From assembly GCA_041663145.1 (NCBI GenBank), contig JBAZRG010000002.1:158618-187165 (forward strand): DNA of 28,548 bases, written 5' to 3'. The stretch's first letter is position 1, and the number at the start of each line of letters is the position of its first letter. The position numbers were made by a program, and so were the translations under genes. The notes under the pieces were generated by a model. It was not told where the DNA came from. It did no database searches and saw nothing but the letters and a program-made list of their open reading frames with translations. This DNA comes from Minisyncoccota bacterium (GTDB lineage Bacteria; Patescibacteriota; Minisyncoccia; Phycocordibacterales; PALSA-1337). This document shows, piece by piece, positions 999 through 28,304 of the stretch.

Positions 999-3900
999 TT
1001 AGACTTCTTGTTCCATGCACCATGTTCTGGCGTTCTGAAACATATGAAGCCATGGTGAAGCCCCAAGTCTTTGCCAAGAGGCTGGCATCCATGGCCACTG
1101 CCACAAACGGAAACAACGCTCGGGATGAGGCATCATCGCTAGATGGCGACCATCAAGGGAACAGAGTGCTGTCATTCCACCCGGCGAACCGTTGGGGTTG
1201 TACGGGTATTCTTCCGTACGATTCCCATGTAGATCCAGATAAGCGAGAGGGGATAGTTTGGCCTTGATGACCTTATCTAGAATCGACTGATCTGGATAGA
1301 ATAGCCGACCTTCACCATGAGCAACCCATACGCCAAGTCTCGAACCTTCCATTCCGGAGAGAAGCACCGACGGGCTGGGCAGAATTTCCACCTGAACCCA
1401 TCGAGATTCGAATCTCTTCGAGATGTTGTGAATGAATCGTGGCTGCTTTTCACTTTCAATCATTCTCCATGGAATCCATCCGAGTAGTGCCATGAGTTGA
1501 CAGCCATTGCAGACGCCGAGCGAGAACGTATCTCGACGAGCGTAGAAACGGTCGAACATCTCTCGAAGCTTTGGGTTGAACAAGATCGCTCCTGCCCAGC
1601 CTTTGGCACTGTCGAATACATCCATATAGGAGAAACCTCCGGCGAATATGATGCCTTGGAATTGATCCAAGTTGATCCTGTCTTCGAGGAGATCACTCAT
1701 CGCAACATCCCATGGAGCAAGACCGCCGGCCAAACAAGCAGCCTGCATCTCACGATCTCCATTCGTACCTTCTTCACGGATGACTGCCACTCGTGGCTTG
1801 TCGGCCGCATTTAGGATGTCTGGGGTAGTGTTTTTGGGTTCGAATGAAAGCCTGTAACCGAGATGTCCCAGATCGTTTCGATCGGTGTGGTTGTGGCCAA
1901 AGTATTCAACCTTGGCACATTGGGGATTCATCTGAAGTTTTTCGATCTCATAGCTTGTGGATTCCCACCACGTGCGTAATTGTTCGGTTGAGGTTAAGAA
2001 TGTCTTACCTCCTCCGTGAATCGCACATGTAGTACCTGGAAGCGTGATACCGATTTCGCATATCTCAATTCCGTAGAATGAACATATTTCCCCAATCCTA
2101 CATAGAGCCTCTCTTTCGAATTCCAAGATAAGACCGAGTTCTTCGTTGAAAAGCTCTGCAAGTAGGTCTATGTCCTTTCCAAGAGCCAATCTGAATCCGC
2201 AATAGCTTGCCATGCACATCTCGGCAACTGCGGTTATGAGGCCACCGTCACTTCGGTCGTGCATAGCTAGGATGAGATCTTCACCGATCATTTGTTGGAT
2301 CGCAAGGAATGCATTCTTGAGGAGTTTCGGATCATCAACATCGGGTGTTTCGTCGCCAAGCTGATTGAAGGCTTGAGCAAGAGCTGAACCACCCAAACGA
2401 CATTTGTGGTGCAAGACACCTTGAGTGTCGAGTCTTCCGCTTAGGTCAATCAATCCAAGCATGCTCTCACCTGGCATCTTGATGTCGGGTGTAACTTTCT
2501 TAGTGATATCGGGTACGGGTGCGTAACCGAGTATGACGAGACTTCCTGGAGCCTTAACGAGTTCTCCCTGAACCGTTGCCGCCATAGAAAGGCTATCTTT
2601 GCCTCCGTCAACTGCGATACCAAGTTCGACCATTAGGTCGGACATGGCAACCGCAGCATCGTAGAGGAGAACTCCTTCATGTGGCAGTTTGGCTGGATAC
2701 ATCCAGTTGGCACGACAGCGAATGTCGTTAATGCCACTGACTTTGACACTGGCCATGTTGGTGAGCATTTCTGCTACAGCCAGACGAGCACCAGCCTTTT
2801 CGTCGATGAGCATTTTTATCGGCTGTTCGCCGACCGCACTTACCGCCCCGGTCAGACCGAAGTGGCTTTGCGCGTTAACACTGTTGTCGGCGATCGGGAT
2901 CTGGGCTATACCACAGCATTGCTGCTGTGCTACCAGTCCCGTGACGCTCCGGTCCACCTTATGAACCAGGTAACCTTTCGAACCGACCGAGGGAAGCTTG
3001 AAGACTTTTTCGATAGCTTCTCCTACGGTTATCTCTGGCAGATCCAAGGGTTTGAGCTCCTTGGTCTTCCGTGCTGATTCGAAAGTCTTCTGAGGCATGT
3101 TCGTGAGAACCTGCTCCAGATTGAGGTCAACAGGTGTGTGTCCGTTTGTGGAATCTTCAACGACAACCTTATGATTGCCGGTTATTTCTCCGAGAACTTC
3201 GCAGTTCACTCGTTCCCGCTTGCAGATCGACTGAAAGAGTCCGATCTGTTCAGGTCTGATCAGGAGGCCGTATCCTTCTTGGAATTCAGCACTCCAGATC
3301 TTGAGGACCGACATGGTCTTGTCGCCAAGCACGATCTTCCGGATATTGATAGTTCCGCCGAGCGGCTCCAGTAGTTCCGTAAGAACATTGCTCGGACCGC
3401 CGGCTCCCTGGTCGTGAATGCTCGAGATGGGATTCTTATCTCCCATTTCGATGCAGGCTCGGATAACGCGATTCGCTCGATTTTCCATCTCTGCGTTGCC
3501 ACGTTGGACGGAATTGAAATCGAGCGTATCGGTATTTTGACCCTGCATCATGCTGGAGGCGCTTCCGCCACCGACACCGATAGGGTAGGCAGGTCCGCCG
3601 ATGCGGACGATCTTCATGCCGACTTCCGGCGTCTCTTTTGCGAGATGCTGGTCAAACAAATGACCAATACCACCGCTGTAGAGAATAGGCTTGCGTGGCT
3701 CGCGCCATTCACCATCGACGATCTGACCGAAGGTTCGACAGAATCCCAGTGTGAGTGGTTCGCCGAATTGATTGCCATAACTCGATACGCCGTTGCTACC
3801 CTCGATGAGGATCGAAAGCGGCGAAGCATACTTGGAAGGCTTATCACGGCCGACTACCTCTTCCGGTATTTCATAACCCTGAATGAAGAGATTGCCGACG

Positions 3901-4856
3901 AAGTAGCCCGCGACGCCGATACCGGTCCAACCACCACGGCCGACCGCCGTGTTGTCGCGGATCCGACCTCCGGAGCCTGTTTGGGCACCGGGGAACGGGG
4001 CGACGAATGTCGGATGATTATGAGTCTCTGCGGTCGCGGTGATGTGAACCACTCTGTCGCAAATTCTCATTTCAGAAGGTTCGCCTGGCGCAAGTGGCAG
4101 GATCAGACTAGTTCTGTATCCCTGGACAGCGCCGGCATTGTCCCTGAAGGCGATGAGGCCGACTCGGTCCATCTCCTCGAGGCAAATAAGCGGATGCTGG
4201 ACGATCTCCATTAGTGTGCGTTTCATCGGCACGCCGTCGATGACGATCTGACCTTTGAAGTACCAGTGACGGCTATGCTCGCTGTTGGCGTTGCCGAGCT
4301 GAAAGAGCTCGACATCAGTCGGGTTCCTTTTGAGGATCTCCGCAAAAAGGTGATAATAATATTCGATGTCCTTAGCATCCATGCCAAGGCCTAGAGTAGA
4401 GTTCATTTCCTCGAGAGCTATTCTTCCACGACCCATGAGGTCAATGGTTCTGACTTCTTCTGGTGTCTCCCCAGTGTTAAAGGATTTGATTCCTTCTCGC
4501 AAACGTTGCTCGGTCATGCGATCAAGGTGAGCCTTGAGGATTGTATCACTTGATTGTCCGTCGCCCATCAAATAACGATGGGTACGTTCGATACGCGTGA
4601 TTTGCCGTAAATCCATTGAGTGACATATCGAGACAGCATTCGAAGAGAACGGAGTCTCGATCGAAAGCCGAGGCCCGATCTCGACAATTTCTCTTGTTCG
4701 GAAATGTGGTTCAAATCCGGTTTTATTCGGTTCGAAAGTTTCTGCGATGAGCCATTGAAGTTGACTAATATCCTGAGTCGACAGTTGGCCTGTGGTTTCA
4801 ACGTAGAAACCAAGTTCCAGGCCACTGCTGATCCGACGATATATGCTATAGATCAT
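999..4856 (-). CDS. purL: Phosphoribosylformylglycinamidine (FGAM) synthase, large single-chain type
   Basis: 1285 aa. It has the N-terminal PurL linker domain, duplicated AIR-synthase-related (PurM-like) domains and a C-terminal class I glutamine amidotransferase with the GVCNGCQLM nucleophile motif. AGGAGA SD lies upstream of the ATG at 4856. Confidence 0.95.
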   Translation of the reverse strand: MIYSIYRRISSGLELGFYVETTGQLSTQDISQLQWLIAETFEPNKTGFEPHFRTREIVEIGPRLSIETPFSSNAVSICHSMDLRQITRIERTHRYLMGDGQSSDTILKAHLDRMTEQRLREGIKSFNTGETPEEVRTIDLMGRGRIALEEMNSTLGLGMDAKDIEYYYHLFAEILKRNPTDVELFQLGNANSEHSRHWYFKGQIVIDGVPMKRTLMEIVQHPLICLEEMDRVGLIAFRDNAGAVQGYRTSLILPLAPGEPSEMRICDRVVHITATAETHNHPTFVAPFPGAQTGSGGRIRDNTAVGRGGWTGIGVAGYFVGNLFIQGYEIPEEVVGRDKPSKYASPLSILIEGSNGVSSYGNQFGEPLTLGFCRTFGQIVDGEWREPRKPILYSGGIGHLFDQHLAKETPEVGMKIVRIGGPAYPIGVGGGSASSMMQGQNTDTLDFNSVQRGNAEMENRANRVIRACIEMGDKNPISSIHDQGAGGPSNVLTELLEPLGGTINIRKIVLGDKTMSVLKIWSAEFQEGYGLLIRPEQIGLFQSICKRERVNCEVLGEITGNHKVVVEDSTNGHTPVDLNLEQVLTNMPQKTFESARKTKELKPLDLPEITVGEAIEKVFKLPSVGSKGYLVHKVDRSVTGLVAQQQCCGIAQIPIADNSVNAQSHFGLTGAVSAVGEQPIKMLIDEKAGARLAVAEMLTNMASVKVSGINDIRCRANWMYPAKLPHEGVLLYDAAVAMSDLMVELGIAVDGGKDSLSMAATVQGELVKAPGSLVILGYAPVPDITKKVTPDIKMPGESMLGLIDLSGRLDTQGVLHHKCRLGGSALAQAFNQLGDETPDVDDPKLLKNAFLAIQQMIGEDLILAMHDRSDGGLITAVAEMCMASYCGFRLALGKDIDLLAELFNEELGLILEFEREALCRIGEICSFYGIEICEIGITLPGTTCAIHGGGKTFLTSTEQLRTWWESTSYEIEKLQMNPQCAKVEYFGHNHTDRNDLGHLGYRLSFEPKNTTPDILNAADKPRVAVIREEGTNGDREMQAACLAGGLAPWDVAMSDLLEDRINLDQFQGIIFAGGFSYMDVFDSAKGWAGAILFNPKLREMFDRFYARRDTFSLGVCNGCQLMALLGWIPWRMIESEKQPRFIHNISKRFESRWVQVEILPSPSVLLSGMEGSRLGVWVAHGEGRLFYPDQSILDKVIKAKLSPLAYLDLHGNRTEEYPYNPNGSPGGMTALCSLDGRHLAMMPHPERCFRLWQWPWMPASWQRLGASPWLHMFQNARTWCMEQEV

Positions 4857-17433: not shown

Positions 17434-17539
17434 AATGGGTATAGTATAACTCCGACTTTATTATCACGCATCCCCAGATTTGCAAGACGCAACCGCACAC
17501 ATCATTGAGATACACTCCGAATGGATGTATAATAAACTC

Positions 17540-17644
17540 ATGGCAAAGAGAATCAACATGCGCTTGAAGACTTCTCGTTCGAGAAAAACCGCCAAGAGGC
17601 GATCTGTTAAGAACGCAAGACTTCATAAGACGAAGAAGAAATAA
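17540..17644 (+). CDS. Possible 34-aa highly basic peptide
   Basis: MAKRINMRLKTSRSRKTAKRRSVKNARLHKTKKK is Lys/Arg-rich like a small ribosomal or nucleic-acid-binding peptide. It lies antisense to a low-quality Cys-rich track ORF (17417-17626). I found no confident homology. Confidence 0.2.
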   Translation: MAKRINMRLKTSRSRKTAKRRSVKNARLHKTKKK

Positions 17645-17899
17645 TAAGTCGATTTTCGAATTATTATCAGAAATGCAATCAGTAAACTCTGATTGTTCTC
17701 TTATGCTTTCTTTTTTATTTCTATACCAAGCTCGATCAACTGACTAGGTTCGACAAGTGATATTTTTGGTGGTTTTAGTTTCTCTTAAATATATTAAACG
17801 CAGAGATTCCACTTATCATCTGTTTTCAATCTCCACTGACTAGGGTTGTTACGAGGTAGTCTATTAATAAGCTAACATAGGTGTATATATTTTAATCAA

Positions 17900-18095
17900 T
17901 ATGTGTTATATTTCTGGCATACCTATGATCCGGCAGACACCGGTGAGGTGAAGAAAGAAAGCCATCCTTTGATTGGTTAGTAGAATCTTCCGGTAGTGCT
18001 CCGATATGCAGAAATGAAGAAAAAAACAGGGTGGCACCGCGACAAAATCGCCCCTGCGGATTTATTAAAATTAATGAATTCGGAGGGGTGTTTTT
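17900..18095 (+). promoter_or_regulatory. T-box riboswitch leader with intrinsic terminator upstream of the AspRS paralog
   Basis: Canonical T-box sequence AACAGGGTGGCACCGCG (18026-18041; consensus AGGGTGGNACCGCG, with the bulge UGGC matching tRNA 3' GCCA and discriminator G as in tRNA-Asp/Asn). It is immediately followed by the terminator CCCCTGCGGA(18051-18060)...TTCGGAGGGG(18079-18088)+TGTTTTT. The ATG is at 18139. Stem I and the specifier were not resolved by eye, so the 5' boundary is approximate. Confidence 0.7.
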
Positions 18096-18138
18096 ATTTA
18101 CAGCAAGTAGGTGGGACATTTCTTCGAACACAAGTACC

Positions 18139-19467
18139 ATGCAAAGAACATATATAAGAGATCTAAAAGAGTTTATAGGTAAAGAAATTAGCATTTCAGG
18201 ATATGTCGATGTACGTCGCAATCAAGGTAAGATGGTGTTTTTCGAATTTCGCGATCGGACGGGCAAGATACAGGGGGTGGTACTTCCTAATAATTCAGAA
18301 GCTCTTGAATCTTCCAAAGAAATACGTTCGGAATGGGTTGTAGAAATAATTGGCATCGTAAATAAACGTCCGCAAAAGAACATTCAAGCCGGAAAGATGA
18401 ACGGGGATATCGAACTTGAGATTAAACATATTAATGTCCTTGGAATAGCCAAAGAACTTCCGTTTGAAAAAGATTCTGAGATTAACATCGATACGTATCT
18501 CGATTACCTTCCACTCACTCTTCGAAGTCAAACACACACGACCGTCTTCAAAGTTCAGGCAGTTATTGCTAAGGCCTTCAGAGACTTCTTTACAAAAGAG
18601 GGTTTTACGGAATTTCAAGCACCGAAATTAATTGGTGATGATGCCGAAGGTGGGGCGAACTCTTTTGATGTTACATATTTCAAACATATCGCACATTTGG
18701 CTCAAAGTCCCCAGTTATATAAACAGATCATGGTCGGCGTATTTGAACGTGTTTTTTCTGTCGGAAACGTATATCGTGCGGAGAAGCATAGTACAACGCG
18801 TCATCTCAATGAATATACCAGTCTAGACATGGAAATGGGCTATATTAAAGATCATTATGATGTCATGAATTCTGAAAATCAATTTTTGCAATATCTTGAA
18901 AATGTTCTTCGTGCCTCTTGTGTTGATGATTTTGCCTTGCTCGGTGCCACTATACCAACGGTCCCGAAAGAAATTCCAAAATTGACCTTACGCGAAGCTC
19001 AAACACTTATCACAACAGATACCGGTAAAGATTGTACAAATGATCCGGATCTTGAGCCTGAACATGAAAGATGGCTTTGTAAGTATGCCGAGAAGAATTT
19101 TAATTCCGACTTTATTTTCGTCACTAATTTTCCGACAGCTAAGCGACCGTTCTATACTTATAGAGATGAAAAAGATCCAACATATACTAAAGGTTTTGAC
19201 CTGCTCTTTCGTGGTGTAGAAATCACTACTGGTGCGCAACGCATCCATAACTACGACGACCTTGTTAGTTCCATGAAAGAGAAGAAGCTTGATCCTGAAA
19301 AGTTCAAATATTATCTTCAAGCTTTCAAATATGGCATGCCTCCACACGGAGGTCTAGGACTTGGGTTGGAGCGCATCACGGCAAAGCTTCTTGGTCTAGA
19401 AAATATCAAGGAAGCCACTCTTTTCCCGAGAGATATTAACAGGATCGATAACCTATTGTCAGAATAG
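18139..19467 (+). CDS. Class IIb aspartyl-tRNA synthetase paralog (archaeal/eukaryotic type), AT-rich copy
   Basis: Start moved to 18139 (MQRTYIRDL...) downstream of the T-box terminator. N-terminal OB anticodon-binding domain; flipping-loop motif LAQSPQLYKQ (AspRS-type QSPQ); motif 2 YRAEKHSTTRHLNEYTSLDME; motif 3 GGLGLGLERITAKLLGLENIKEATLFPRD. GC is far lower than the second copy at 23312. Confidence 0.8.
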   Translation: MQRTYIRDLKEFIGKEISISGYVDVRRNQGKMVFFEFRDRTGKIQGVVLPNNSEALESSKEIRSEWVVEIIGIVNKRPQKNIQAGKMNGDIELEIKHINVLGIAKELPFEKDSEINIDTYLDYLPLTLRSQTHTTVFKVQAVIAKAFRDFFTKEGFTEFQAPKLIGDDAEGGANSFDVTYFKHIAHLAQSPQLYKQIMVGVFERVFSVGNVYRAEKHSTTRHLNEYTSLDMEMGYIKDHYDVMNSENQFLQYLENVLRASCVDDFALLGATIPTVPKEIPKLTLREAQTLITTDTGKDCTNDPDLEPEHERWLCKYAEKNFNSDFIFVTNFPTAKRPFYTYRDEKDPTYTKGFDLLFRGVEITTGAQRIHNYDDLVSSMKEKKLDPEKFKYYLQAFKYGMPPHGGLGLGLERITAKLLGLENIKEATLFPRDINRIDNLLSE

Positions 19468-19503
19468 AGATTAACTATTAAGATAAGCGCATCAAAAATC
19501 ATC

Positions 19504-20241
19504 ATGTATAAACAAGGAATAGAGGTAAAAAGAGAAACAAATTTTGGGATTATTCTTGAGAAGTCCTCATGGTTTTCAATTGTCGAATCTCTTTTCCCGA
19601 AAAGTGAGCGAATCTATTATCCAAATGATCAGGATGAGGTGTTACATATAATCGTGGATGATATTGACATCGCTTTTATCTCTGGTCAAGGTTCAAGCAT
19701 GGTCGCGTGCATGACTGAAAGATTAAGAGTATATGGATCAAAGGCAATAATTAGAATTGGGACATGTGGAGCATTATCGCAAGAAATAAAACTATGGTGT
19801 CCAATTATTACGACAGCATGTTTTAGTAGCGAAGGTACCTCAAAGCATTACTTACCGTGCGGCTATCCTATTATATCTGACTTTAATCTGAATACCCTCC
19901 TCATTAAAAAATTAATTAAAGGAGGTGTTGATTACCAACAAGGTATTACATTAACAACAGATGGTAGATGGCGAGAAGATCCGGTATTGCTCAAACAATT
20001 ATGTCAGCTGGGGGTTATTTCTATTGAAATGGAAACGGCGGCAATTTTATCAGTTTGTCAGTTTAGAAAATTACCTGCAGCTGCAATAAATATTCCAACT
20101 GATTTACCAGCAGACGAGGAAAGTGAAGAAGATTTTAAGGGCATACCAAATCGAGAAACTTATGAATCAGATTTGAGAAAATGTTTAATGAAAATCATTC
20201 CTTTTGCAGTGGAGACCTTAAAAGATTTATATCATAAATAA
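19504..20241 (+). CDS. PNP_UDP_1 family protein, MTA/SAH-nucleosidase-like (Mtn-like)
   Basis: IIRIGTCGALSQ corresponds to the substrate-binding GSAGG loop (NTGSAGG) of MtnN. LTTDGRW carries the catalytic Asp. ISIEMETAAILSVCQ matches the VEMEATAIAHVC motif. It sits 36 nt after the AspRS paralog stop. Confidence 0.6.
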   Translation: MYKQGIEVKRETNFGIILEKSSWFSIVESLFPKSERIYYPNDQDEVLHIIVDDIDIAFISGQGSSMVACMTERLRVYGSKAIIRIGTCGALSQEIKLWCPIITTACFSSEGTSKHYLPCGYPIISDFNLNTLLIKKLIKGGVDYQQGITLTTDGRWREDPVLLKQLCQLGVISIEMETAAILSVCQFRKLPAAAINIPTDLPADEESEEDFKGIPNRETYESDLRKCLMKIIPFAVETLKDLYHK

Positions 20242-20250
20242 ATCAAACAA

Positions 20251-20877
20251 ATGACAATCTGGGCAAACATGATCTATGGTGAAGATGTTAAATTTACTAC
20301 ACCGTTACCAGATAAAGGTTTCCTGACATCCTTTTCAAAAGACATAAGTATTCTTGATGTTGGTTGTGGATATGGAAGAGTTCTAAGTTATTTACAGAGT
20401 TTGGGTTTTACAAATTTGACAGGTTTCGATATATCCTCAAATTACGTATTAGAGGCCAAGAAAAATTGCCAAGATGCAAACCTCTTTGTTTCTGATTTCA
20501 AAAGTTTAAATCTGAATAAGAAATATGATCTAATCTTACTGATGGGGGTTATTGAATATATTCTCACTGATAAAGATCAGGACGCTTTTTTTAGGAAGCT
20601 TTCTGGAGAGCTCTCTACCAATGGATCTGTTTTGCTGGAAACTTTTATTATTGATTTCAAACCAAATTGGAAACAATATATTTTAGGATTTATAAAAACA
20701 TTGCATTTTGGACGGTTTAGAAACAGTAAAGGTTTTGAGTGTCACCATCAGTCGATAAATGGTTTAAGGGTGATATTACAAAAATACTTCATTATTAATT
20801 CAGAGACAGAAAAATGTTATGTAACATGGACCAATAATTATTGCCGTGGGTATAATATTAATTTGAAGAAAAAATAA
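20251..20877 (+). CDS. Small class I SAM-dependent methyltransferase-fold protein
   Basis: Motif I ILDVGCGYGRVLSYL and an acidic post-I residue (GFDIS). 208 aa. The gap to the upstream gene is 9 nt. Confidence 0.7.
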   Translation: MTIWANMIYGEDVKFTTPLPDKGFLTSFSKDISILDVGCGYGRVLSYLQSLGFTNLTGFDISSNYVLEAKKNCQDANLFVSDFKSLNLNKKYDLILLMGVIEYILTDKDQDAFFRKLSGELSTNGSVLLETFIIDFKPNWKQYILGFIKTLHFGRFRNSKGFECHHQSINGLRVILQKYFIINSETEKCYVTWTNNYCRGYNINLKKK

Positions 20878-20881
20878 TTAT

Positions 20882-22960
20882 ATGGAATCAGATTTAGATA
20901 ATTTAATTAAAACTGTTTCAATACAGGAGGAGCGGAAAAGCAGGTGTATAAACCTTATTGCATCAGAAAACATAATCAGTGATAGGGTTAGCCAATTGCA
21001 GGCATCGTTGCTTTCTAATCGGTATATTCTCAATGATTTTCCAAACAATAAAGAACTTTTTGAAATTAAGGAAAAACTGAAATATCATCTTTGCAAAATG
21101 TTTAATGTTAAATATGTCAACATATCGCCGCTTTCGGGTATGAGTTGTATGAGTTTGATTATCAGCAGTCTAACAAACAAAAATGATAACATCTACACGT
21201 TGAAACCTCTTGATGGAGGCCACGCGTCGACCGAAAAAATATGTCACATGTATCATTTGAATATTAACTATTTACCATTTAGTAATATCGATTATCGATT
21301 CAATTTAGAAGAAATAAAGAAAATATTCGAGATAAGAAAACCACGTCTAATATATTTGGATAATACGATCATCAGTTTTTATTCTCCAGTTGATGAGTTG
21401 AAGAAACTTGCAGAAAAATATTATGCTCCGATTGTATATGATGGTTCGCATGTCTTGGGTTTAATCGCTGGTAAGTCGTTTCCGAATCCAATAGAAAACG
21501 GAGCAGATATTTTGAGTGGCAGTACTCATAAAACATTCTTTGGTTCCCAAAAAGGAATCATCTTGACTAATAACCAGGATCTAATAAATAAAATTAATTC
21601 TATATCAAATGATTATATATCTAGTCTTCACACAGGAAGTCTTTTGGCTTTGTATATGAGTGTATTAGAAATGGAAAAATTTGGGAATGAATATGCCATG
21701 CAAGTTGTAAAAAATGCCAAGGCATTGGGGAAAAATCTGGCTATAAATGGGGTTGCAATTCCCACTCTTGAAAAGGGTGTGACTGAAACGCATCAAGTTT
21801 GGATAGACACAGGTAAAGTTGACCCACAAAGAGCATTTGAAATGCTTGCTGAATGTAATATCAATACAAACCCTATTCGGATACCTGCGATACAAAAAGT
21901 TGGACTAAGATTGGGAACTGCGGAAGTGACGAGATTGGGAATGAAAGAAGATGAAATGAAACAGATAGCGAAATTTATTTCTGAAGTATTGATTGGTTCT
22001 AAAGAAAAGAACCTCGTTAAGGAAGATGTAATCAAGTTTAGTGGTAAATATCAAAAAACACTTTTCACTCTAGACAATTATAATAGCAATGTTGATCTTC
22101 CTCTTATGATAAAAGAAAACGAAGTTATTTTAGACCAAAGATTTGAAACACATGATGTAATAAATAATACAACAGTTGTGGGATATGGGGATATTGTGGG
22201 CAAATATGTCAAAGACTTTTTTAGTATAATTCCTGGTTTTCAGGGACTTATTATTCGGGGTGGTGTTGGTAGGGGTACTGCTGATGACTTGTCAGATATT
22301 GATTTCACATGTGTATTTGATTGTGATGATATTGAGAAAATCAAAAAACAATATGGACTTAAAACCGGCATGTATAAATATAATGGAATTATGTTTTCAG
22401 GCCGATATATATCTCTGAATTCGTTTAGAGACAGCTTATGGTCACCTAAAATGAAACATGCTTATTCATATGTGAAGTTGATACATTGTGCCAAAACAAT
22501 TAGTGACATAATAAAAAAGAAAACAAAGATTTCGATTTCAGAACAAAAAAGGAGGTTAGTAGAGAATGTTATTGAGTTGGGAGAAATCTGTAAGGTTTTT
22601 AATGAGTATCACGGTTTTAAAATGTTTTCAGAAATCTATAAACAATATTCAAGAAAAGAATTTTTGGTGGCAAATTTAGAAATTGATAGAGCAGTAAGAT
22701 ATATAAAAAATATAATTTTCGATCTTAACAAAATTAACTATCCTGAGGAAAAAAGTTATTATACTAAGTTCTTTTCCGGTTTACCTAAGCAACCTGACGG
22801 ATTTGATCATCAGATTAAAACCATATTACAAATGCCTCGGGATGATAGAAGTTTTGGAAAACGACTAACACTTCTTGTAATATTAGCCAGAGAGGTTTTG
22901 GGTTATTGTGAAAAATATGTATCTTTACCAAAGGACATATATAAGTTTTACCTGAACTAG
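20882..22960 (+). CDS. Fusion protein: N-terminal SHMT-like fold-type I PLP enzyme plus C-terminal Pol-beta-superfamily nucleotidyltransferase with a helical domain
   Basis: N-terminal half: LIASENIIS (SHMT LIASENFTS), LDGGHAST (SHMT GGHLTHG), YDGSHVLGL (PLP-Asp region DMAHxxGL) and SGSTHKTFFGSQKGIIL (SHMT TTTTHKTLRGPRGG, the PLP lysine). C-terminal half: RGGVGRGTADDLSDIDFTCVF fits the minimal NTase hG[GS]x(9-13)Dh[DE]h motif, followed by a helical substrate-binding-like domain as in ANT/LinB-type nucleotidyltransferases. The gap to the MTase gene is 4 nt. Confidence 0.6.
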   Translation: MESDLDNLIKTVSIQEERKSRCINLIASENIISDRVSQLQASLLSNRYILNDFPNNKELFEIKEKLKYHLCKMFNVKYVNISPLSGMSCMSLIISSLTNKNDNIYTLKPLDGGHASTEKICHMYHLNINYLPFSNIDYRFNLEEIKKIFEIRKPRLIYLDNTIISFYSPVDELKKLAEKYYAPIVYDGSHVLGLIAGKSFPNPIENGADILSGSTHKTFFGSQKGIILTNNQDLINKINSISNDYISSLHTGSLLALYMSVLEMEKFGNEYAMQVVKNAKALGKNLAINGVAIPTLEKGVTETHQVWIDTGKVDPQRAFEMLAECNINTNPIRIPAIQKVGLRLGTAEVTRLGMKEDEMKQIAKFISEVLIGSKEKNLVKEDVIKFSGKYQKTLFTLDNYNSNVDLPLMIKENEVILDQRFETHDVINNTTVVGYGDIVGKYVKDFFSIIPGFQGLIIRGGVGRGTADDLSDIDFTCVFDCDDIEKIKKQYGLKTGMYKYNGIMFSGRYISLNSFRDSLWSPKMKHAYSYVKLIHCAKTISDIIKKKTKISISEQKRRLVENVIELGEICKVFNEYHGFKMFSEIYKQYSRKEFLVANLEIDRAVRYIKNIIFDLNKINYPEEKSYYTKFFSGLPKQPDGFDHQIKTILQMPRDDRSFGKRLTLLVILAREVLGYCEKYVSLPKDIYKFYLN

Positions 22961-23197
22961 TTGAGACTGATGGGATATTCACGGCTTTATCGGTAGCATT
23001 ATTATAAAGAAAGCCATTCGTGGCAACTAGGATATTTAATTACAAGATGACTGATCTATTTCAGTTTATTCAAGATATGGATATCAGAAAAGATAGCTAT
23101 TTTTTCATTGTATGTGGTGAAGTGTCTCCGAGCTATCGAACTCAAGCGGCTTCAAAAGCTGACTAACCTCACATACATATTGCACTCATTAAAAAGC

Positions 23198-23226
23198 TTG
23201 ACAATATTAATATTGTTTGTTACTTT
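23198..23226 (+). promoter_or_regulatory. Sigma70-type promoter for aspS copy 2
   Basis: Perfect -35 TTGACA (23198-23203), 17-nt spacer, then TGt-TACTTT (extended -10 with a weak hexamer). A strong SD GAAAGGAGGTG lies upstream of the ATG at 23312. Confidence 0.4.
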
Positions 23227-23311
23227 ATCATAAGAACTATAAATGGAGTTCATCTTTTTATAGTAGTTATTATGAACAAAATGACCACAACAAATTGAAA
23301 GGAGGTGGCAA

Positions 23312-24616
23312 ATGAATCGCACATTGACTCAATACATACCGGCTTTAATCGGCCAACAAGTAAAAGTTGCGGGCTTTTCACAAGTTATTCGCGACCAAAA
23401 GAAAATGCAGTTTGTGATCCTTAGAGATCAGACGGGGCAGGTTCAGATCTGTCATGAAAAAGGTGGTGACGAGGATGAGTTGAAAAAGACCATCTCTTCA
23501 CTCACCGCTGAATCAGCGGTCACTGTTATCGGTCGCGTGGTCGAAAACAAGGGCGTGAAGCTTGGTGGAGTCGAGATTGTGGCGGAGTCGATTGATGTCT
23601 CAAGCATCGCCATTGTGCCATTACCGATTACGCCGGAATCATCGCTCGATCTGCAGATGGACTGGCGGATGCTTAGCCTGAGACAGCCAGAAAATCTCCT
23701 GATCTTCCAGGTCCAGACGACCATGGAGCAGGCGATGAGGGAGTTCTGGGCTGACAACGGATTCATCGAGGTACATTCGCCGAAGCTTATGGCAACGGCG
23801 AGCGAATCGGGTGCCGAGCTGTTTCAGCTTGAGTACTTCGGACAGAAAGCGACTCTGGCTCAATCGCCACAGTTTTATAAGCAAATGGCGATGGCGGCAG
23901 GGTTTGATCGGATCTTCGAGATCGCGCCTGTATTCCGTGCTAATCCGTCGTTCACATCACGACATGACACCGAGTTTACCTCGGTTGACATGGAGATATC
24001 GTGGGTTGATTCCCATGAAGATCTGATGCATATCGAGGAAACTTGGTTGCATCATGTGGTCAAACGAGTGTCGGAGAAACACGGTAAAGCCATCAAGGAC
24101 ACCTTCGGAGCTGATGTGGTGATTCCTCAGCTTCCATTTCCGAGGGTTACCTTGGCAAATGCGCGAGAGATTCTCGCAAAGCAGGGTCATACCATGGAGC
24201 AAATCACCGACCTCGATCCGCCCGGCGAAAGAGGTTTGGCGGAACACATCAAGAAGGAATTTGGTCACGAGTTTGTTTTCGTGATCGACTACCCGATTGA
24301 TGTGCGGCCGTTCTACCACATGCGTCATGTCGGCAATCCCGGCATCACCAAGAGCTTCGACCTTTTATGGAAGGGGCTTGAAGTGACGACGGGTGCACAG
24401 CGTGAACATCGTGTCGAGACGCTCGAACAGCAGGCACGGGAAAAGGGCTTGGCTCTTGCTCCTCTTGCACACTATATCAACTTCTTTCGTTACGGCTGTC
24501 CACCGCACGGAGGATTTGGCGTGGGACTTACGAGGCTTCTCATGGTTCTCCTTGATCGTAAGAACGTCAGGGAAGTGACCTACCTCTATCGCGGGCCTAA
24601 TCGCCTGACACCGTAA
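23312..24616 (+). CDS. aspS: Aspartyl-tRNA synthetase, archaeal/eukaryotic type (class IIb)
   Basis: OB-fold N-terminus; QSPQFYKQ flipping loop; motif 2 FRANPSFTSRHDTEFTSVDMEI; motif 3 GGFGVGLTRLLMVLLDRKNVREVTYLYRGPNRLTP (compare archaeal AspRS ...FPRDRRRLTP). GC is typical of the surrounding genome. Confidence 0.85.
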   Translation: MNRTLTQYIPALIGQQVKVAGFSQVIRDQKKMQFVILRDQTGQVQICHEKGGDEDELKKTISSLTAESAVTVIGRVVENKGVKLGGVEIVAESIDVSSIAIVPLPITPESSLDLQMDWRMLSLRQPENLLIFQVQTTMEQAMREFWADNGFIEVHSPKLMATASESGAELFQLEYFGQKATLAQSPQFYKQMAMAAGFDRIFEIAPVFRANPSFTSRHDTEFTSVDMEISWVDSHEDLMHIEETWLHHVVKRVSEKHGKAIKDTFGADVVIPQLPFPRVTLANAREILAKQGHTMEQITDLDPPGERGLAEHIKKEFGHEFVFVIDYPIDVRPFYHMRHVGNPGITKSFDLLWKGLEVTTGAQREHRVETLEQQAREKGLALAPLAHYINFFRYGCPPHGGFGVGLTRLLMVLLDRKNVREVTYLYRGPNRLTP

Positions 24617-24639
24617 TTGTTCTTTGGTTAGTTAACACA

Positions 24640-24670
24640 CAGCTAGGATGAAAGTCCTGGCTGTTTTTTT
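24640..24670 (+). terminator. Rho-independent terminator after aspS
   Basis: Stem CAGCTAGG(24640-24647)/CCTGGCTG(24656-24663), 8 bp including one G-U pair, loop ATGAAAGT, then TTTTTTT. Confidence 0.5.
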
Positions 24671-24749
24671 AAAAGGCAAGGCAAAAATTCGTAAGTTCCA
24701 GAATTAATTGCAACACCAGTACGTATGATTTGTGTTAATATGTTGAAAC

Positions 24750-27653: not shown

Positions 27654-28304
27654 ATGGTTTTTGCCAGATTTCCTCTAGCATCGACTAATGGTCGGTCCGT
27701 GATTTCGGTGCAACGTGAAAGACCGAGACCGTGTCGCAGTAGACATGTCGACGAACAGATCGCCGGCATGAGAAAACTGTACAAACAATTGGGTTGGGAT
27801 TTCGATGAATTGGGTCTGATCGTGCCGGAGCGAGTCAAAGGTTTCGATCGACTCATAGTCATGGCTGATACAGAGCTAACCTTCGACAGAGCCTTCGATG
27901 TCTGTAGTCATTCGTTTCCGTGTTGGCGACATCGATCTTGTGACAAGAATCGCAAACATTCAACTAAAGATGAACGTCATCCCAAATCTGGAGTGTATGC
28001 GATCTGGGTTCGGGACAGTATTGAGACTGACTCAGATCTCCGGGGTCTATCTGCCGATGATATCAAGCGAGACGGTAGCATAAGGACAATGACTGCACTC
28101 GAACGTGTTGTTCTTGAAGGCATCTTCTTTATGGAGACTGGTGGTCATCTAGATAGGGAATGTGTCACTTATTGTACTGGATCTCGTTACAAGGACCGTG
28201 GTGTGCCGGGAGCACGACAGGACAATGAAAAGTTTATCATCTACTGGCGTGATCGGTCCAGCAAATTTCCAACCCTGGGTCCACGTCGAGTGATTGCCGT
28301 TTGA
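27654..28304 (+). CDS. Hypothetical protein; GC-rich relative to the window
   Basis: 216-aa ORF; the real start may be the internal ATG at MRKLYKQLGWDFDELG. No family recognised. It is followed by a strong terminator. Confidence 0.4.
   Translation: MVFARFPLASTNGRSVISVQRERPRPCRSRHVDEQIAGMRKLYKQLGWDFDELGLIVPERVKGFDRLIVMADTELTFDRAFDVCSHSFPCWRHRSCDKNRKHSTKDERHPKSGVYAIWVRDSIETDSDLRGLSADDIKRDGSIRTMTALERVVLEGIFFMETGGHLDRECVTYCTGSRYKDRGVPGARQDNEKFIIYWRDRSSKFPTLGPRRVIAV

What the first reader, a model, noticed from the sequence alone, without database searches (positions are those of the whole stretch)
18139..24616. Two archaeal-type AspRS paralogs 3.8 kb apart with contrasting composition and regulation
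Both carry the AspRS-specific QSPQ(L/F)YKQ flipping loop and class IIb motifs, so neither looks like AsnRS by that criterion. Copy 1 is AT-rich and T-box regulated; copy 2 is GC-normal with a strong SD, a perfect -35 and its own terminator. Possible explanations are a discriminating vs non-discriminating pair, a xenolog kept as a resistant enzyme, or a neofunctionalised paralog (for example aminoacylating a non-tRNA substrate for the adjacent enzymes).
Basis: partly seen in the sequence, partly recalled or inferred. Interest (0 to 1): 0.55.

Follow-up and report, generated by a model that had tools for sequence, protein, structure and literature searches.

The report
T-box AspRS plus acquired second AspRS
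A tiny-genome (Patescibacteria) bacterium carries its own aspartyl-tRNA synthetase under a tRNA-sensing RNA switch and, 3.8 kb downstream, a second foreign-looking one; between them lies a rare enzyme cassette that sits beside aspartyl-tRNA synthetase genes in other genomes too.

Summary
Both genes (18139-19467 and 23312-24616) pass curated archaeal-type AspRS models. Neither is AsnRS. They are 36% identical and fall in two separate clades.

Copy 1 is the resident Paceibacteria-type enzyme. Its GC matches the host, and relatives keep a conserved neighbour gene. It is preceded by an aspartate T-box with an invariant GACA loop, compensatory changes in 17 of 26 pairs, and a -25.7 kcal/mol terminator.

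Copy 2 is the compositional outlier (GC3 0.58 against about 0.40 for host genes). It has its own ribosome-binding site and terminator. Its anticodon-binding L1 loop carries the lysine of the discriminating T. kodakarensis enzyme, not the proline of non-discriminating enzymes.

New here: 17887-24671 is one block, 93-94% identical to a contig with unrelated flanks. The genes between the two copies form a rare cassette: a PNP-like enzyme, a methyltransferase, an SHMT/transaldolase-like enzyme fused to an ANT-like nucleotidyltransferase, and a phosphoribosyltransferase remnant. In 7 of 8 contexts this cassette abuts an AspRS gene, and those genes come from several lineages.

Best reading: a resident T-box-controlled AspRS plus a horizontally acquired, probably discriminating, second AspRS. 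Why AspRS genes accompany the cassette is unresolved. The genome could not be checked for gatCAB or asnS.

The parts
17887..24671 (+). Whole conserved block: T-box, aspS1, cassette, aspS2 and terminator
   Evidence: 93-94% nucleotide identity to L163 9748-16946. The 10 kb flanks on both sides are unrelated. No terminal repeats were found.
17864..17891 (+). Promoter-like site ahead of the leader (TTAATA-16-TATATT, 9 of 12 matches)
   Evidence: Consensus scan only, so weak evidence.
17916..18062 (+). Asp-specific T-box leader. It has K-turn-like AUGA/GAG, a 4-bp Stem I hairpin with apical loop CAGACA (GAC plus A), Stem II with AGUA, Stem IIA, and an antiterminator with a UGGCACC bulge.
   Evidence: Rfam RF00230 at 42 bits, E 8.8e-8. 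Own covariance model R1 at 139 bits. Covariation counts. G21 A22 C23 A24 are invariant in 14 leaders.
18049..18099 (+). Intrinsic terminator of the T-box. Its 5' arm overlaps the 3' strand of the antiterminator, and UGUUUUUAUUU follows.
   Evidence: -25.7 kcal/mol, z -6.5, against -9.9 kcal/mol for the antiterminator. The same arrangement occurs in all homologous leaders.
18139..19467 (+). aspS1: resident, Paceibacteria-clade archaeal-type AspRS (442 aa) with a long L1-loop insertion
   Evidence: GC3 is 0.345. This type is the only AspRS within +-10 kb in 80 of 80 species loci. A class-Ib aaRS gene lies directly upstream in 48 of 68 loci.
19504..20241 (+). PNP_UDP_1-family nucleoside phosphorylase/nucleosidase-like gene, first gene of the cassette
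   Evidence: PF01048 at 93 bits. Sub-threshold matches to AMP nucleosidase, uridine phosphorylase and MTA/SAH nucleosidase. It starts 36 nt after the aspS1 stop, and no terminator was called between them.
20251..20877 (+). Class I SAM-dependent methyltransferase-fold gene
   Evidence: Methyltransf_23/25/11. Conserved in every copy of the cassette.
20882..22960 (+). Fusion protein of 692 aa. The N-terminal part is an SHMT / L-threonine-transaldolase-like PLP enzyme that retains the THK lysine. The C-terminal part is an ANT(4')/LinB-like small-molecule nucleotidyltransferase.
   Evidence: PF00464. AlphaFold models have pLDDT 85 and 88. Foldseek matches 7k34 and 4uqv at E 1e-30, and 6nmk, 1kny and 3jyy at E 2e-7. 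Only about 29 full-length clusters exist among 5.8 billion proteins.
22960..23109 (+). Remnant of a purine-type phosphoribosyltransferase gene. The gene is intact in L163, L168, L172 and L176.
   Evidence: blastn and tblastn match only an internal fragment of the L163 gene. The intact L163 protein resembles adenine or hypoxanthine PRTases.
23199..23309 (+). Upstream region of copy 2: TTGACA at 23199-23204 and Shine-Dalgarno AAAGGAGGTGG at 23299-23309
   Evidence: Read from the sequence. The scan called no full promoter.
23312..24616 (+). aspS2: acquired archaeal-type AspRS (434 aa). It has the Lys-type L1 loop (GVKLGGVE), motif 2 FRANPS, and the hinge variant LQMDWRMLSLR.
   Evidence: GC is 51.6% and GC3 is 0.58.
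24639..24671 (+). Intrinsic terminator that closes the block
   Evidence: 11-bp stem plus T7, -17.5 kcal/mol, z -4.5. It coincides with the end of the homology to L163.

Best explanation
The two genes are true aspartyl-tRNA synthetases of different ancestry, held in one transcription-unit-sized block.

Copy 1 is the lineage's own housekeeping AspRS. Its transcription is gated by a T-box leader. When tRNA-Asp is uncharged, its anticodon GUC pairs with the GAC in the apical loop of a very short Stem I. Its free 3' end pairs with the UGGC bulge, which stabilises the antiterminator. Polymerase then reads into aspS1 and, probably, the three cassette genes that follow with no terminator. When tRNA-Asp is charged, the stronger terminator forms.

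Copy 2 was acquired horizontally. It is expressed from its own signals and belongs to a clade whose anticodon-binding loop looks like that of discriminating enzymes. The most likely division of labour is as follows (inferred, not shown). Copy 2 charges only tRNA-Asp. The resident, feedback-controlled copy 1 is the broader enzyme that also serves tRNA-Asn for GatCAB. This would resemble the two AspRS of Thermus and Deinococcus.

Shown here: gene identities, the T-box structure and its Asp specifier, the foreign composition of copy 2, block conservation, and the linkage of the cassette to AspRS genes.

Inferred: tRNA specificities, co-transcription of the cassette, and the reason the cassette keeps AspRS genes beside it.
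For: Identity: both genes pass the curated AspRS models. The best solved relative of copy 1 is T. thermophilus non-discriminating AspRS2 (370 bits, against 294 for T. kodakarensis). The best solved relative of copy 2 is the discriminating T. kodakarensis AspRS (342 bits, against 260). The clades are distinct and well supported.

Copy 1 is resident. It is the sole AspRS near the locus in 80 of 80 GTDB species. A class-Ib aaRS gene lies directly upstream in 48 of 68 loci. Its GC3 matches the host.

T-box. The same Asp T-box precedes aspS in 14 of 80 species loci, and in L163, L167, L172, L133 and L170.

Copy 2 is foreign. Its GC3 is 0.58. Its closest relatives are also GC-richer than their hosts and sit in accessory contexts.

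L1 loop: the copy 2 family has VK-LGG, T. kodakarensis has AK-LG, and the non-discriminating T. thermophilus and S. tokodaii enzymes have AP-GG. The adjacent pairs in the window/L163, L001, L086, L088, L133 and L170 each combine one Lys-type gene with one non-Lys gene. That partner is Pro-type in L086, L133 and L170. An asnS-like gene sits directly beside Lys-type aspS in L001, L083, L085, L086, L090, L097, L134, L153 and L178.

The role of the L1 proline in tRNA-Asn recognition is cited (references 40 and 42 there) and is otherwise from my own knowledge (Feng et al. 2003 and 2005; Charron et al. 2003).
Against: The tRNA specificity of copy 1 cannot be read from sequence. Its L1 loop has a 7-10 residue insertion, with Asn at the position aligned to the Pro or Lys.

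Copy 2 has Gln, not Trp, at the second determinant (T. kodakarensis W26). Its loop is one residue longer than in T. kodakarensis, so the equivalence of the lysine is an alignment inference.

The T-box senses tRNA-Asp only, which does not by itself point to a role with tRNA-Asn.

No gatCAB, asnS or tRNA genes are in the window. The source contig could not be walked.

The discriminating/non-discriminating model does not explain why the cassette is flanked by AspRS genes of unrelated lineages.
Confidence: 0.55

Rival explanations
1. Target duplication tied to the cassette. The PNP-like, methyltransferase, transaldolase/nucleotidyltransferase and PRTase genes make, or modify, a small molecule that acts on AspRS, for example an aminoacyl-adenylate mimic. 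The AspRS gene kept beside them is a protective insensitive copy. The Asp T-box raises aspS1 when charging drops.
For: The cassette abuts an AspRS gene in 7 of 8 distinct contexts. Those AspRS genes come from several lineages: the copy 2 clade (window, L163, L168), two other archaeal-type genes (L170), a 459-aa archaeal-type gene (L174), and a bacterial-type 478-aa gene lacking the GAD domain (L176).

The fusion enzyme pairs a fold known from L-threonine transaldolases of antibiotic pathways with a fold known from antibiotic nucleotidyltransferases.

The cassette is AT-rich relative to every host and lies next to transposases or defence genes in L168, L170 and L176.

A second target gene inside a biosynthetic cluster is a classic self-resistance pattern (own knowledge: mupirocin with IleRS, obafluorin with ThrRS, albomycin with SerRS).
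Against: No product or inhibitor is known, and no exporter or obvious scaffold enzyme is present.

The copy 2 clade also occurs without the cassette, paired with asnS.

The accessory clade shows no changes in the active site. The only clade-specific changes are two hinge substitutions, R115Q and D122S.

In L172 the cassette is intact while the downstream AspRS has decayed to 88 aa. L171 has the cassette without any AspRS.

No PADLOC defence model matches convincingly.
Confidence: 0.25
2. Transient redundancy. This is a snapshot of xenologous gene displacement or hitch-hiking. An acquired aspS landed near the resident one, both are currently functional, and one will be lost. There is no division of labour.
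For: The block is visibly decaying. The PRTase gene is reduced to a 150-nt remnant in the window. In L172 the downstream aspS is an 88-aa fragment. Both proteins keep all catalytic and anticodon-binding residues.
Against: The pair is kept at 93-94% identity in a second genome with different flanks. Six independent adjacent pairs always combine a Lys-type gene with a non-Lys-type gene, which is not expected from random redundancy. Copy 2 has intact expression signals.
Confidence: 0.15
3. Copy 2 is a neofunctionalised paralog that activates aspartate for a non-tRNA acceptor used by the adjacent enzymes.
For: It is physically linked to the cassette. Motif 2 reads FRAN instead of FRAE.
Against: FRANPS is invariant across the whole copy 2 family, including single-copy genes on contigs with host-matched GC. 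The OB-fold residues that read the anticodon (F34, Q45, E88) are invariant. The gene scores above the AspRS equivalog cut-offs.
Confidence: 0.04
4. Copy 1 is really an AsnRS, so the pair is an ordinary AspRS plus AsnRS.
For: AsnRS evolved from archaeal-type AspRS, so cross-hits exist (265 bits to the AsnRS model).
Against: The AsnRS models score below their cut-offs (265 against 414, and 254 against 343). The AspRS model scores 503 bits. The Asp-type Lys in QSPQLYKQ and the Asp in SLDME are present. Copy 1 lies outside the 100%-supported AsnRS clade. Its T-box specifier is GAC, not AAC.
Confidence: 0.01

Closest known systems
Dual AspRS of Thermus thermophilus and Deinococcus radiodurans (AspRS1 discriminating, AspRS2 archaeal-type non-discriminating, used with GatCAB)
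   Same: Two AspRS genes in one bacterium, one of them acquired. They are predicted to differ in the anticodon-binding L1 loop. Copy 1's best solved relative is T. thermophilus AspRS2 itself. The literature calls a second AspRS in bacteria rare (PMC4206432).
   Different: Here both genes are archaeal-type. They lie 3.8 kb apart in one block. The copy that looks discriminating is the acquired one. One copy is under a T-box. The tRNA specificities were not measured.
T-box control of one of several aaRS copies in Firmicutes (B. subtilis thrS/thrZ and tyrS/tyrZ; one of three aspS genes in Clostridium acetobutylicum)
   Same: One paralog is under a cognate T-box while another is not (PMC2494555). 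The mechanism is terminator versus antiterminator.
   Different: The organism is a Patescibacteria member. Stem I is reduced to a 4-bp hairpin whose apical loop carries the specifier. The T-box operon probably also carries non-synthetase cassette genes.
Actinobacterial ileS T-boxes with ultrashort Stem I (Sherwood et al. 2015; M. tuberculosis and N. farcinica structures)
   Same: The specifier sits in the apical loop of a truncated Stem I. There is no elbow-binding platform. The Stem II S-turn (AGUA) and Stem IIA/B are retained (review PMC7583486).
   Different: Those T-boxes act on translation by sequestering the Shine-Dalgarno sequence. This one ends in a strong intrinsic terminator with a U run. 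The review states that transcriptional T-boxes generally need the long Stem I.
Self-resistance aaRS genes inside antibiotic gene clusters (for example ObaO ThrRS with the ObiH transaldolase in obafluorin, MupM IleRS, AlbS SerRS)
   Same: An extra copy of one synthetase sits next to enzymes of secondary-metabolite type. One of these resembles an L-threonine transaldolase. The linkage is conserved across taxa.
   Different: No product is known and no AspRS example is known to me. The host is a reduced-genome symbiont. This is a resemblance only.

Membership tests
Archaeal/eukaryal-type AspRS (NCBIfam NF003483, TIGR00458) | Score above the curated equivalog cut-off | tested here: met
   Copy 1 scores 502.9 and 379.5 bits. 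Copy 2 scores 471.4 and 386.7 bits. The cut-offs are 353 and 368.4.
Archaeal/eukaryal-type AspRS (NCBIfam NF003483, TIGR00458) | N-terminal OB-fold anticodon-binding domain plus class II core, with no GAD insertion (about 430-440 aa) | tested here: met
   PF01336 and PF00152 are found in both proteins, which are 442 and 434 aa long.
Archaeal/eukaryal-type AspRS (NCBIfam NF003483, TIGR00458) | Aspartate-specific residues: QSPQ(L/F)YKQ with its Lys, and Asp in the motif-2 'DxE' | tested here: met
   Copy 1 has QSPQLYKQ and SLDME. Copy 2 has QSPQFYKQ and SVDME. These are invariant in both families.
Archaeal/eukaryal-type AspRS (NCBIfam NF003483, TIGR00458) | Aspartylation of tRNA-Asp | not testable with these tools
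   Requires an enzyme assay.
AsnRS (NF003037, TIGR00457) | Score above the curated cut-off and placement in the AsnRS clade | tested here: not met
   Scores of 265 and 258 bits fall below the cut-off of 414. The AsnRS clade (P. horikoshii AsnRS plus the asnS-like genes) has 100% bootstrap and excludes both copies.
Non-discriminating archaeal-type AspRS | Conserved proline in the L1 loop (T. thermophilus P72, D. radiodurans P77) | tested here: not met
   This refers to copy 2, which has GVK-LGGVE with Lys and no Pro.
Non-discriminating archaeal-type AspRS | The same L1-loop proline, tested in copy 1 | tested here: inconclusive
   Copy 1 has a 7-10 residue insertion (NKRPQKNIQAGKMNGDIE). Asn aligns with the Pro, and an invariant Arg-Pro lies earlier in the loop.
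Discriminating archaeal AspRS (T. kodakarensis type) | Lys at position 85 and Trp at position 26 | tested here: inconclusive
   Copy 2 has Lys at the aligned position 85 but Gln at position 26. Its loop is one residue longer.
T-box riboswitch (Rfam RF00230) | Rfam gathering score | tested here: not met
   42.1 bits against a gathering score of 93. The model's 72-nt distal Stem I is replaced by 2 nt.
T-box riboswitch (Rfam RF00230) | Conserved T-box sequence forming an antiterminator with a UGGN bulge, mutually exclusive with a terminator | tested here: met
   AGGGUGGCACCGCG is present. The antiterminator helices pair in 96-98% of cells. The terminator folds at -25.7 kcal/mol and overlaps the antiterminator's 3' strand.
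T-box riboswitch (Rfam RF00230) | Specifier codon followed by a purine, presented by Stem I | tested here: met
   GAC-A is invariant in 14 aligned leaders. The 4-bp stem beneath it shows compensatory changes in 3 of 4 pairs.
T-box riboswitch (Rfam RF00230) | Distal Stem I platform that binds the tRNA elbow | tested here: not met
   It is absent. Stem I ends in the specifier loop.
T-box riboswitch (Rfam RF00230) | Binding of uncharged cognate tRNA and readthrough | not testable with these tools
   Requires an in vitro transcription assay.
Self-resistance aaRS in a biosynthetic gene cluster | A second copy of the target enzyme co-located with biosynthetic-type genes, with the linkage conserved across taxa | tested here: met
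   7 of 8 cassette contexts have an adjacent AspRS gene, and these genes come from several AspRS lineages.
Self-resistance aaRS in a biosynthetic gene cluster | The cluster makes an inhibitor of that enzyme, and the extra copy is insensitive to it | not testable with these tools
   No product is known. The only clade-specific changes are two hinge substitutions.

The most novel reading that the evidence does not exclude
The rare cassette makes or modifies an aspartyl-adenylate-like small molecule. Its genes are a PNP/MTAN-like enzyme, a SAM methyltransferase, a transaldolase fused to an ANT-like nucleotidyltransferase, and a purine PRTase. Under this reading, the AspRS genes that different lineages have placed beside the cassette are protective target copies. 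That would be the first natural-product-type locus with an AspRS immunity gene, and it would sit in ultra-small Patescibacteria. The Asp T-box would act as the sensor that raises AspRS when charging is inhibited.
Probability: 0.15. Interest if true: 0.85.

Novelty: new variant of a known kind. Interest (0 to 1): 0.55.

Why it matters
Second AspRS genes are considered rare in bacteria. Where studied, they underlie tRNA-dependent asparagine synthesis. This locus shows that Patescibacteria repeatedly hold pairs made of a Lys-type and a non-Lys-type archaeal AspRS, often with an asnS-like gene. That gives a testable handle on how these reduced genomes switch between indirect and direct Asn-tRNA formation.

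It also documents an aspartate T-box with an ultrashort Stem I that appears to act by transcription termination. I found no paper linking T-boxes to this phylum.

Finally, an uncharacterised enzyme cassette is linked to AspRS genes of unrelated ancestry. This points to unknown chemistry connected to aspartyl-tRNA synthesis. The cassette could be expressed and tested directly.

Tried and rejected
Rfam at gathering threshold found nothing. The T-box appeared only in E-value mode.

Exact-sequence look-ups of copy 2 and of its 100% cluster representative returned no contig. I therefore could not walk the 187-kb source contig to look for gatCAB, asnS or tRNA-Asn. No tRNA genes are in the window.

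I looked for terminal direct or inverted repeats that would mark the block as a mobile element. Only short chance-level matches were found.

PADLOC gave no defence-system match for the cassette beyond generic methyltransferase and PRTase hits. The cassette is absent from IMG/VR viral contigs. A few distant AspRS genes occur there but were not followed.

The Stem IIB pseudoknot is visible by eye: CUAC/GUAG in L001, CUGC/GCAG in L167, UGC/GCA in the window. It could not be counted because MAFFT misaligns that stretch, so I left it out of the tested structure.

A search for accessory-clade substitutions in the active site found none, only hinge changes.

Literature searches for T-box with CPR or Patescibacteria returned nothing. 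The papers on the discriminating/non-discriminating determinants (Charron 2003; Feng 2003 and 2005) are not held. Those determinants therefore rest on my own knowledge plus the secondary citation.

I considered an SD-sequestering (translational) T-box and rejected it. GGAGGGG in the 3' arm lies 50 nt upstream of the conserved ATG, and every homolog has a U run after the hairpin.

Full report
**What is in the sequence**

The window carries two same-strand genes, 18139-19467 (442 aa, copy 1) and 23312-24616 (434 aa, copy 2). Both have the OB-fold anticodon-binding domain and the class II core. Both pass the curated NCBIfam models for archaeal-type AspRS: 503 and 471 bits against a cut-off of 353. 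Both stay well below the AsnRS cut-offs. They share 36% identity. Each keeps QSPQ(L/F)YKQ and the Asp-type 'DxE'.

All close database relatives are named Patescibacteria or Paceibacterota. The other window genes fit a small-genome bacterium of that group: tyrS, lemA, a ZIP transporter, a PIF1 helicase, nrnA-like and cyclophilin genes. No tRNA, gatCAB or asnS gene lies in the window.

**The two copies belong to different clades**

I built a neighbour-joining tree of 101 sequences with 100 bootstraps.
- The AsnRS clade (P. horikoshii AsnRS plus the asnS-like genes of related contigs) has 100% support.
- The copy 1 family has 99% support.
- The copy 2 family has 100% support.

Among solved structures, copy 1 is closest to the non-discriminating AspRS2 of T. 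thermophilus (370 bits, against 294 for T. kodakarensis). Copy 2 is closest to the discriminating T. kodakarensis enzyme (342 bits, against 260).

**Copy 1 is the resident gene**

A scan of one genome per species returned 80 loci with a copy 1-type gene. None has a second AspRS or an asnS-like gene within 10 kb. In 48 of the 68 loci with enough upstream DNA, a class-Ib synthetase gene lies directly upstream on the same strand. This is conserved synteny. The cassette-bearing relative L172 still shows it. Copy 1 has GC 39.6% and GC3 0.345, which is typical for the window.

**The T-box**

Rfam reports nothing at its gathering score. In E-value mode it finds RF00230 at 17916-18058 with 42 bits, with the distal 72 nt of Stem I missing.

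The leader reads, in order:
- ACC-UAUGA
- a 4-bp hairpin with loop CAGACA
- GAGG
- Stem II with the AGUA S-turn
- Stem IIA
- AGGGUGGCACCGCG...CGCCCCU

I collected homologous leaders from related loci and aligned 14 of them. G-A-C-A in the apical loop is invariant.

On a structure of 26 pairs:
- 93% of cells pair.
- 17 pairs show changes on both sides.
- 0 of 500 shuffles reach the observed covariation.
- Sliding the 3' partners drops pairing to 38-50%.

A covariance model built from this alignment finds the element in these places and nowhere else in 2.1 Mb:
- upstream of aspS in 14 of the 80 species loci;
- in L163, L167 and L172;
- ahead of other AspRS types in L133 and L170.

Downstream, an 18-bp hairpin (-25.7 kcal/mol, z -6.5) overlaps the 3' strand of the antiterminator (-9.9 kcal/mol). 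It is followed by UGUUUUUAUUU.

The element is therefore an aspartate-specific T-box. The specifier GAC matches anticodon GUC, and the bulge UGGC matches a G73-CCA end. It acts by transcription attenuation despite an ultrashort Stem I. A recent review associates ultrashort Stem I with translational T-boxes of Actinobacteria and says transcriptional ones generally need the long Stem I (PMC7583486). I found no paper linking T-boxes with this phylum.

**Composition**

Host genes in the window have GC3 of 0.28-0.47.

| Gene or region | GC | GC3 |
|---|---|---|
| Window overall | 41.8% | about 0.40 (host genes 0.28-0.47) |
| Copy 1 | 39.6% | 0.345 |
| Cassette genes between the copies | 31-35% | 0.26-0.29 |
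| Copy 2 | 51.6% | 0.58 |

Copy 2 is the outlier. It has a strong ribosome-binding site and a clean terminator. A TTGACA lies 108 nt upstream, but no matching -10 was called.

**The block**

Window 17887-24671 aligns at 93-94% nucleotide identity with contig L163 (9748-16946). The 10 kb on each side share nothing. The homology starts just before the T-box and ends at copy 2's terminator.

A more distant relative (L167, 76% identity in aspS1) has the T-box and aspS1 but no cassette and no copy 2. It carries the window's downstream genes (nrnA-like, cyclophilin, PD-(D/E)XK) inverted on the other side.

In the window, the phosphoribosyltransferase gene of the block is reduced to a 150-nt remnant. 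No terminal repeats were found.

**The cassette**

The genes between the two copies form a recurring unit:
- a PNP_UDP_1-family enzyme;
- a class I SAM methyltransferase;
- a fusion protein of about 680 aa;
- usually a purine-type phosphoribosyltransferase.

The fusion protein's N-terminal half models as an SHMT / L-threonine transaldolase fold, with Foldseek E 1e-30 to 7k34 and 4uqv. The PLP lysine is retained. Its C-terminal half models as the two-domain fold of small-molecule nucleotidyltransferases such as ANT(4') and LinB (E 2e-7, TM about 0.5). It carries the G-x-G...D-x-D motif.

Only about 29 full-length clusters of this fusion exist among 5.8 billion proteins. I read eight distinct genomic contexts.

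| Context | AspRS genes next to the cassette |
|---|---|
| Window, L163 | T-box plus copy 1-type upstream; copy 2-type downstream |
| L172 | T-box plus copy 1-type upstream; 88-aa synthetase fragment downstream |
| L168 | Copy 2-type downstream only |
| L170 | Pro-type AspRS upstream (opposite strand); T-box plus Lys-type AspRS downstream |
| L174 | 459-aa archaeal-type AspRS immediately upstream |
| L176 | Bacterial-type AspRS lacking the GAD domain (478 aa) downstream |
| L171 | None |

So 7 of 8 contexts have an AspRS gene next to the cassette, and at least four AspRS lineages are involved. A genome of this size has one or two aspS genes among several hundred genes. By my own estimate, chance adjacency is about 1% per context. 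The cassette is AT-richer than its host in every locus. It lies beside transposase, recombinase or restriction-type genes in L168, L170 and L176. It is not found on viral contigs and matches no known defence system.

**Where copy 2 comes from**

Copy 2's nearest relatives form a 98% clade: the window, L163, L168 and L001. Its 78%-identical relative (L178-L181) and L001 carry a different module: methyltransferase, asnS-like gene, aspS2, S51 peptidase and HIT. In that module the asnS-like and aspS2 genes are GC-rich (52-58%) against hosts of 35-42% GC.

The asnS-like protein is a divergent AsnRS (277 bits to P. horikoshii AsnRS). In the metagenome sample of the copy 2 family, an asnS-like gene lies next to aspS in about ten of 80 loci. 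Several contigs hold a GC-rich copy 2-type gene beside a lower-GC AspRS gene: L086, L088 and L133.

The subclade has a lineage-specific hinge motif, LQxDWRxLSxR in place of RLDxRxLDLR. It has no changes in the active site. Motif 2 reads FRANPS across the whole family.

**Discriminating or not**

In archaeal-type AspRS, a proline in the L1 loop of the OB fold is needed to accept tRNA-Asn. The discriminating T. kodakarensis enzyme has Lys85 there. This rests on my own knowledge (Feng et al. 2003 and 2005; Charron et al. 2003) and is echoed.

In my alignment:

| Enzyme or family | L1-loop sequence |
|---|---|
| T. thermophilus AspRS2, S. tokodaii AspRS | (K/R)AP-(G/R)G |
| T. kodakarensis AspRS | KAK-LG |
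| Copy 2 family (almost all members) | xVK-LGG |
| Copy 1 family | 7-10 residue insertion, RPEKNIQ...NGDIE |

In all six independent adjacent pairs, one gene is Lys-type and the partner is not. The pairs are the window/L163, L001, L086, L088, L133 and L170. In L086, L133 and L170 the partner is Pro-type.

This pattern, together with the frequent asnS neighbour of Lys-type genes, is the best evidence for a split in tRNA specificity. It remains an inference for three reasons:
- Copy 2 has Gln at the second determinant (T. kodakarensis W26).
- Its loop is one residue longer than in T. kodakarensis.
- Copy 1's loop cannot be classified.

**Most likely mechanism**

Copy 1 is the resident AspRS, switched on by uncharged tRNA-Asp through the T-box. 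Copy 1's stop is followed after 36 nt by the first cassette gene, and no terminator is called before 24639. The T-box therefore probably also drives the cassette.

Copy 2 is an acquired AspRS expressed from its own signals. It is probably specific for tRNA-Asp. If so, copy 1 would act as the broader enzyme.

The rivals are:
- target duplication connected to a cassette product that acts on AspRS;
- transient redundancy during gene displacement, supported by the decayed copy in L172 and the PRTase remnant here;
- a non-tRNA role for copy 2, disfavoured by its invariant anticodon-reading residues.

**Comparison with what is known**

A second AspRS is described as rare in bacteria. The best-known case is Deinococcus-Thermus (PMC4206432). 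T-box control of only one of several synthetase copies is known in Firmicutes, including one of three aspS genes in C. acetobutylicum (PMC2494555).

This locus is a variant of those themes:
- Both copies are archaeal-type.
- They sit in one block in a Patescibacteria genome.
- The T-box has an ultrashort Stem I yet acts through termination.
- The pair brackets an uncharacterised cassette that recurs next to AspRS genes.

That last linkage is the part I could not file under anything known.

**Limits**

- I could not retrieve the rest of the source genome, so gatCAB and asnS remain unchecked.
- Loci from short metagenomic contigs underestimate GC contrasts.
- The tree is neighbour-joining only.
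- The eight cassette contexts are not all phylogenetically independent.

Noticed in passing
window 17540-17644 (+): A 34-aa, extremely basic ORF (MAKRINMRLKTSRSRKTAKRRSVKNARLHKTKKK). An 11/12 sigma-70-like promoter lies at 17505-17533 and a terminator-like hairpin at 17675-17696. It has no Pfam match. It could be a small ribosomal-type protein.
   Followed up: partly
window 999-4856 (-): A large purL-type FGAM synthase gene (1285 aa). At GC 51% and GC3 0.53 it is a second compositional outlier in a window of about 42% GC. It is probably another acquired gene.
   Followed up: no
window 17916-18099, and 14 of 80 related species loci: The T-box has an ultrashort Stem I, with the specifier in the apical loop, yet ends in a strong intrinsic terminator. 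Reviews associate ultrashort Stem I with translational T-boxes of Actinobacteria. No paper linking T-boxes to Patescibacteria was found.
   Followed up: partly
L017 1494-1569: A T-box variant whose apical loop reads AUUAACAA, with a possible AAC (Asn) specifier. It lies ahead of a 233-aa ORF and a copy 1-type aspS. If real, it would tie this AspRS type to tRNA-Asn.
   Followed up: no
L176 11335-12771: A bacterial-type AspRS of only 478 aa that lacks the GAD insertion domain (651 bits to NF001750 in two stretches). It sits directly after the cassette.
   Followed up: no
L001 1666-6763; L178 4457-10241: A second recurring module: methyltransferase, divergent asnS, Lys-type aspS, S51 (PepE-like) peptidase and a HIT hydrolase. 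L178 also has an AstE/AspA-family gene nearby. The asnS and aspS genes are 10-20 GC points above their neighbours.
   Followed up: partly
L172 7278-7544: An 88-aa class II synthetase fragment lies exactly where copy 2 sits in the window. The downstream AspRS can therefore be lost while the cassette stays intact.
   Followed up: no
window 23312-24616 (residues 115 and 122): The accessory copy 2 subclade replaces the otherwise invariant hinge motif RLDxRxLDLR with LQxDWRxLSxR (R115Q, D122S). At least 63 of the 120 closest clusters share this.
   Followed up: partly
window 27654-28304 (+): A 216-aa ORF with GC 48% and no family match. It lies at the edge of the window.
   Followed up: no
L182-L185 (IMG/VR contigs): Archaeal-type AspRS genes 44-48% identical to copy 2 occur on contigs classified as viral.
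   Followed up: no
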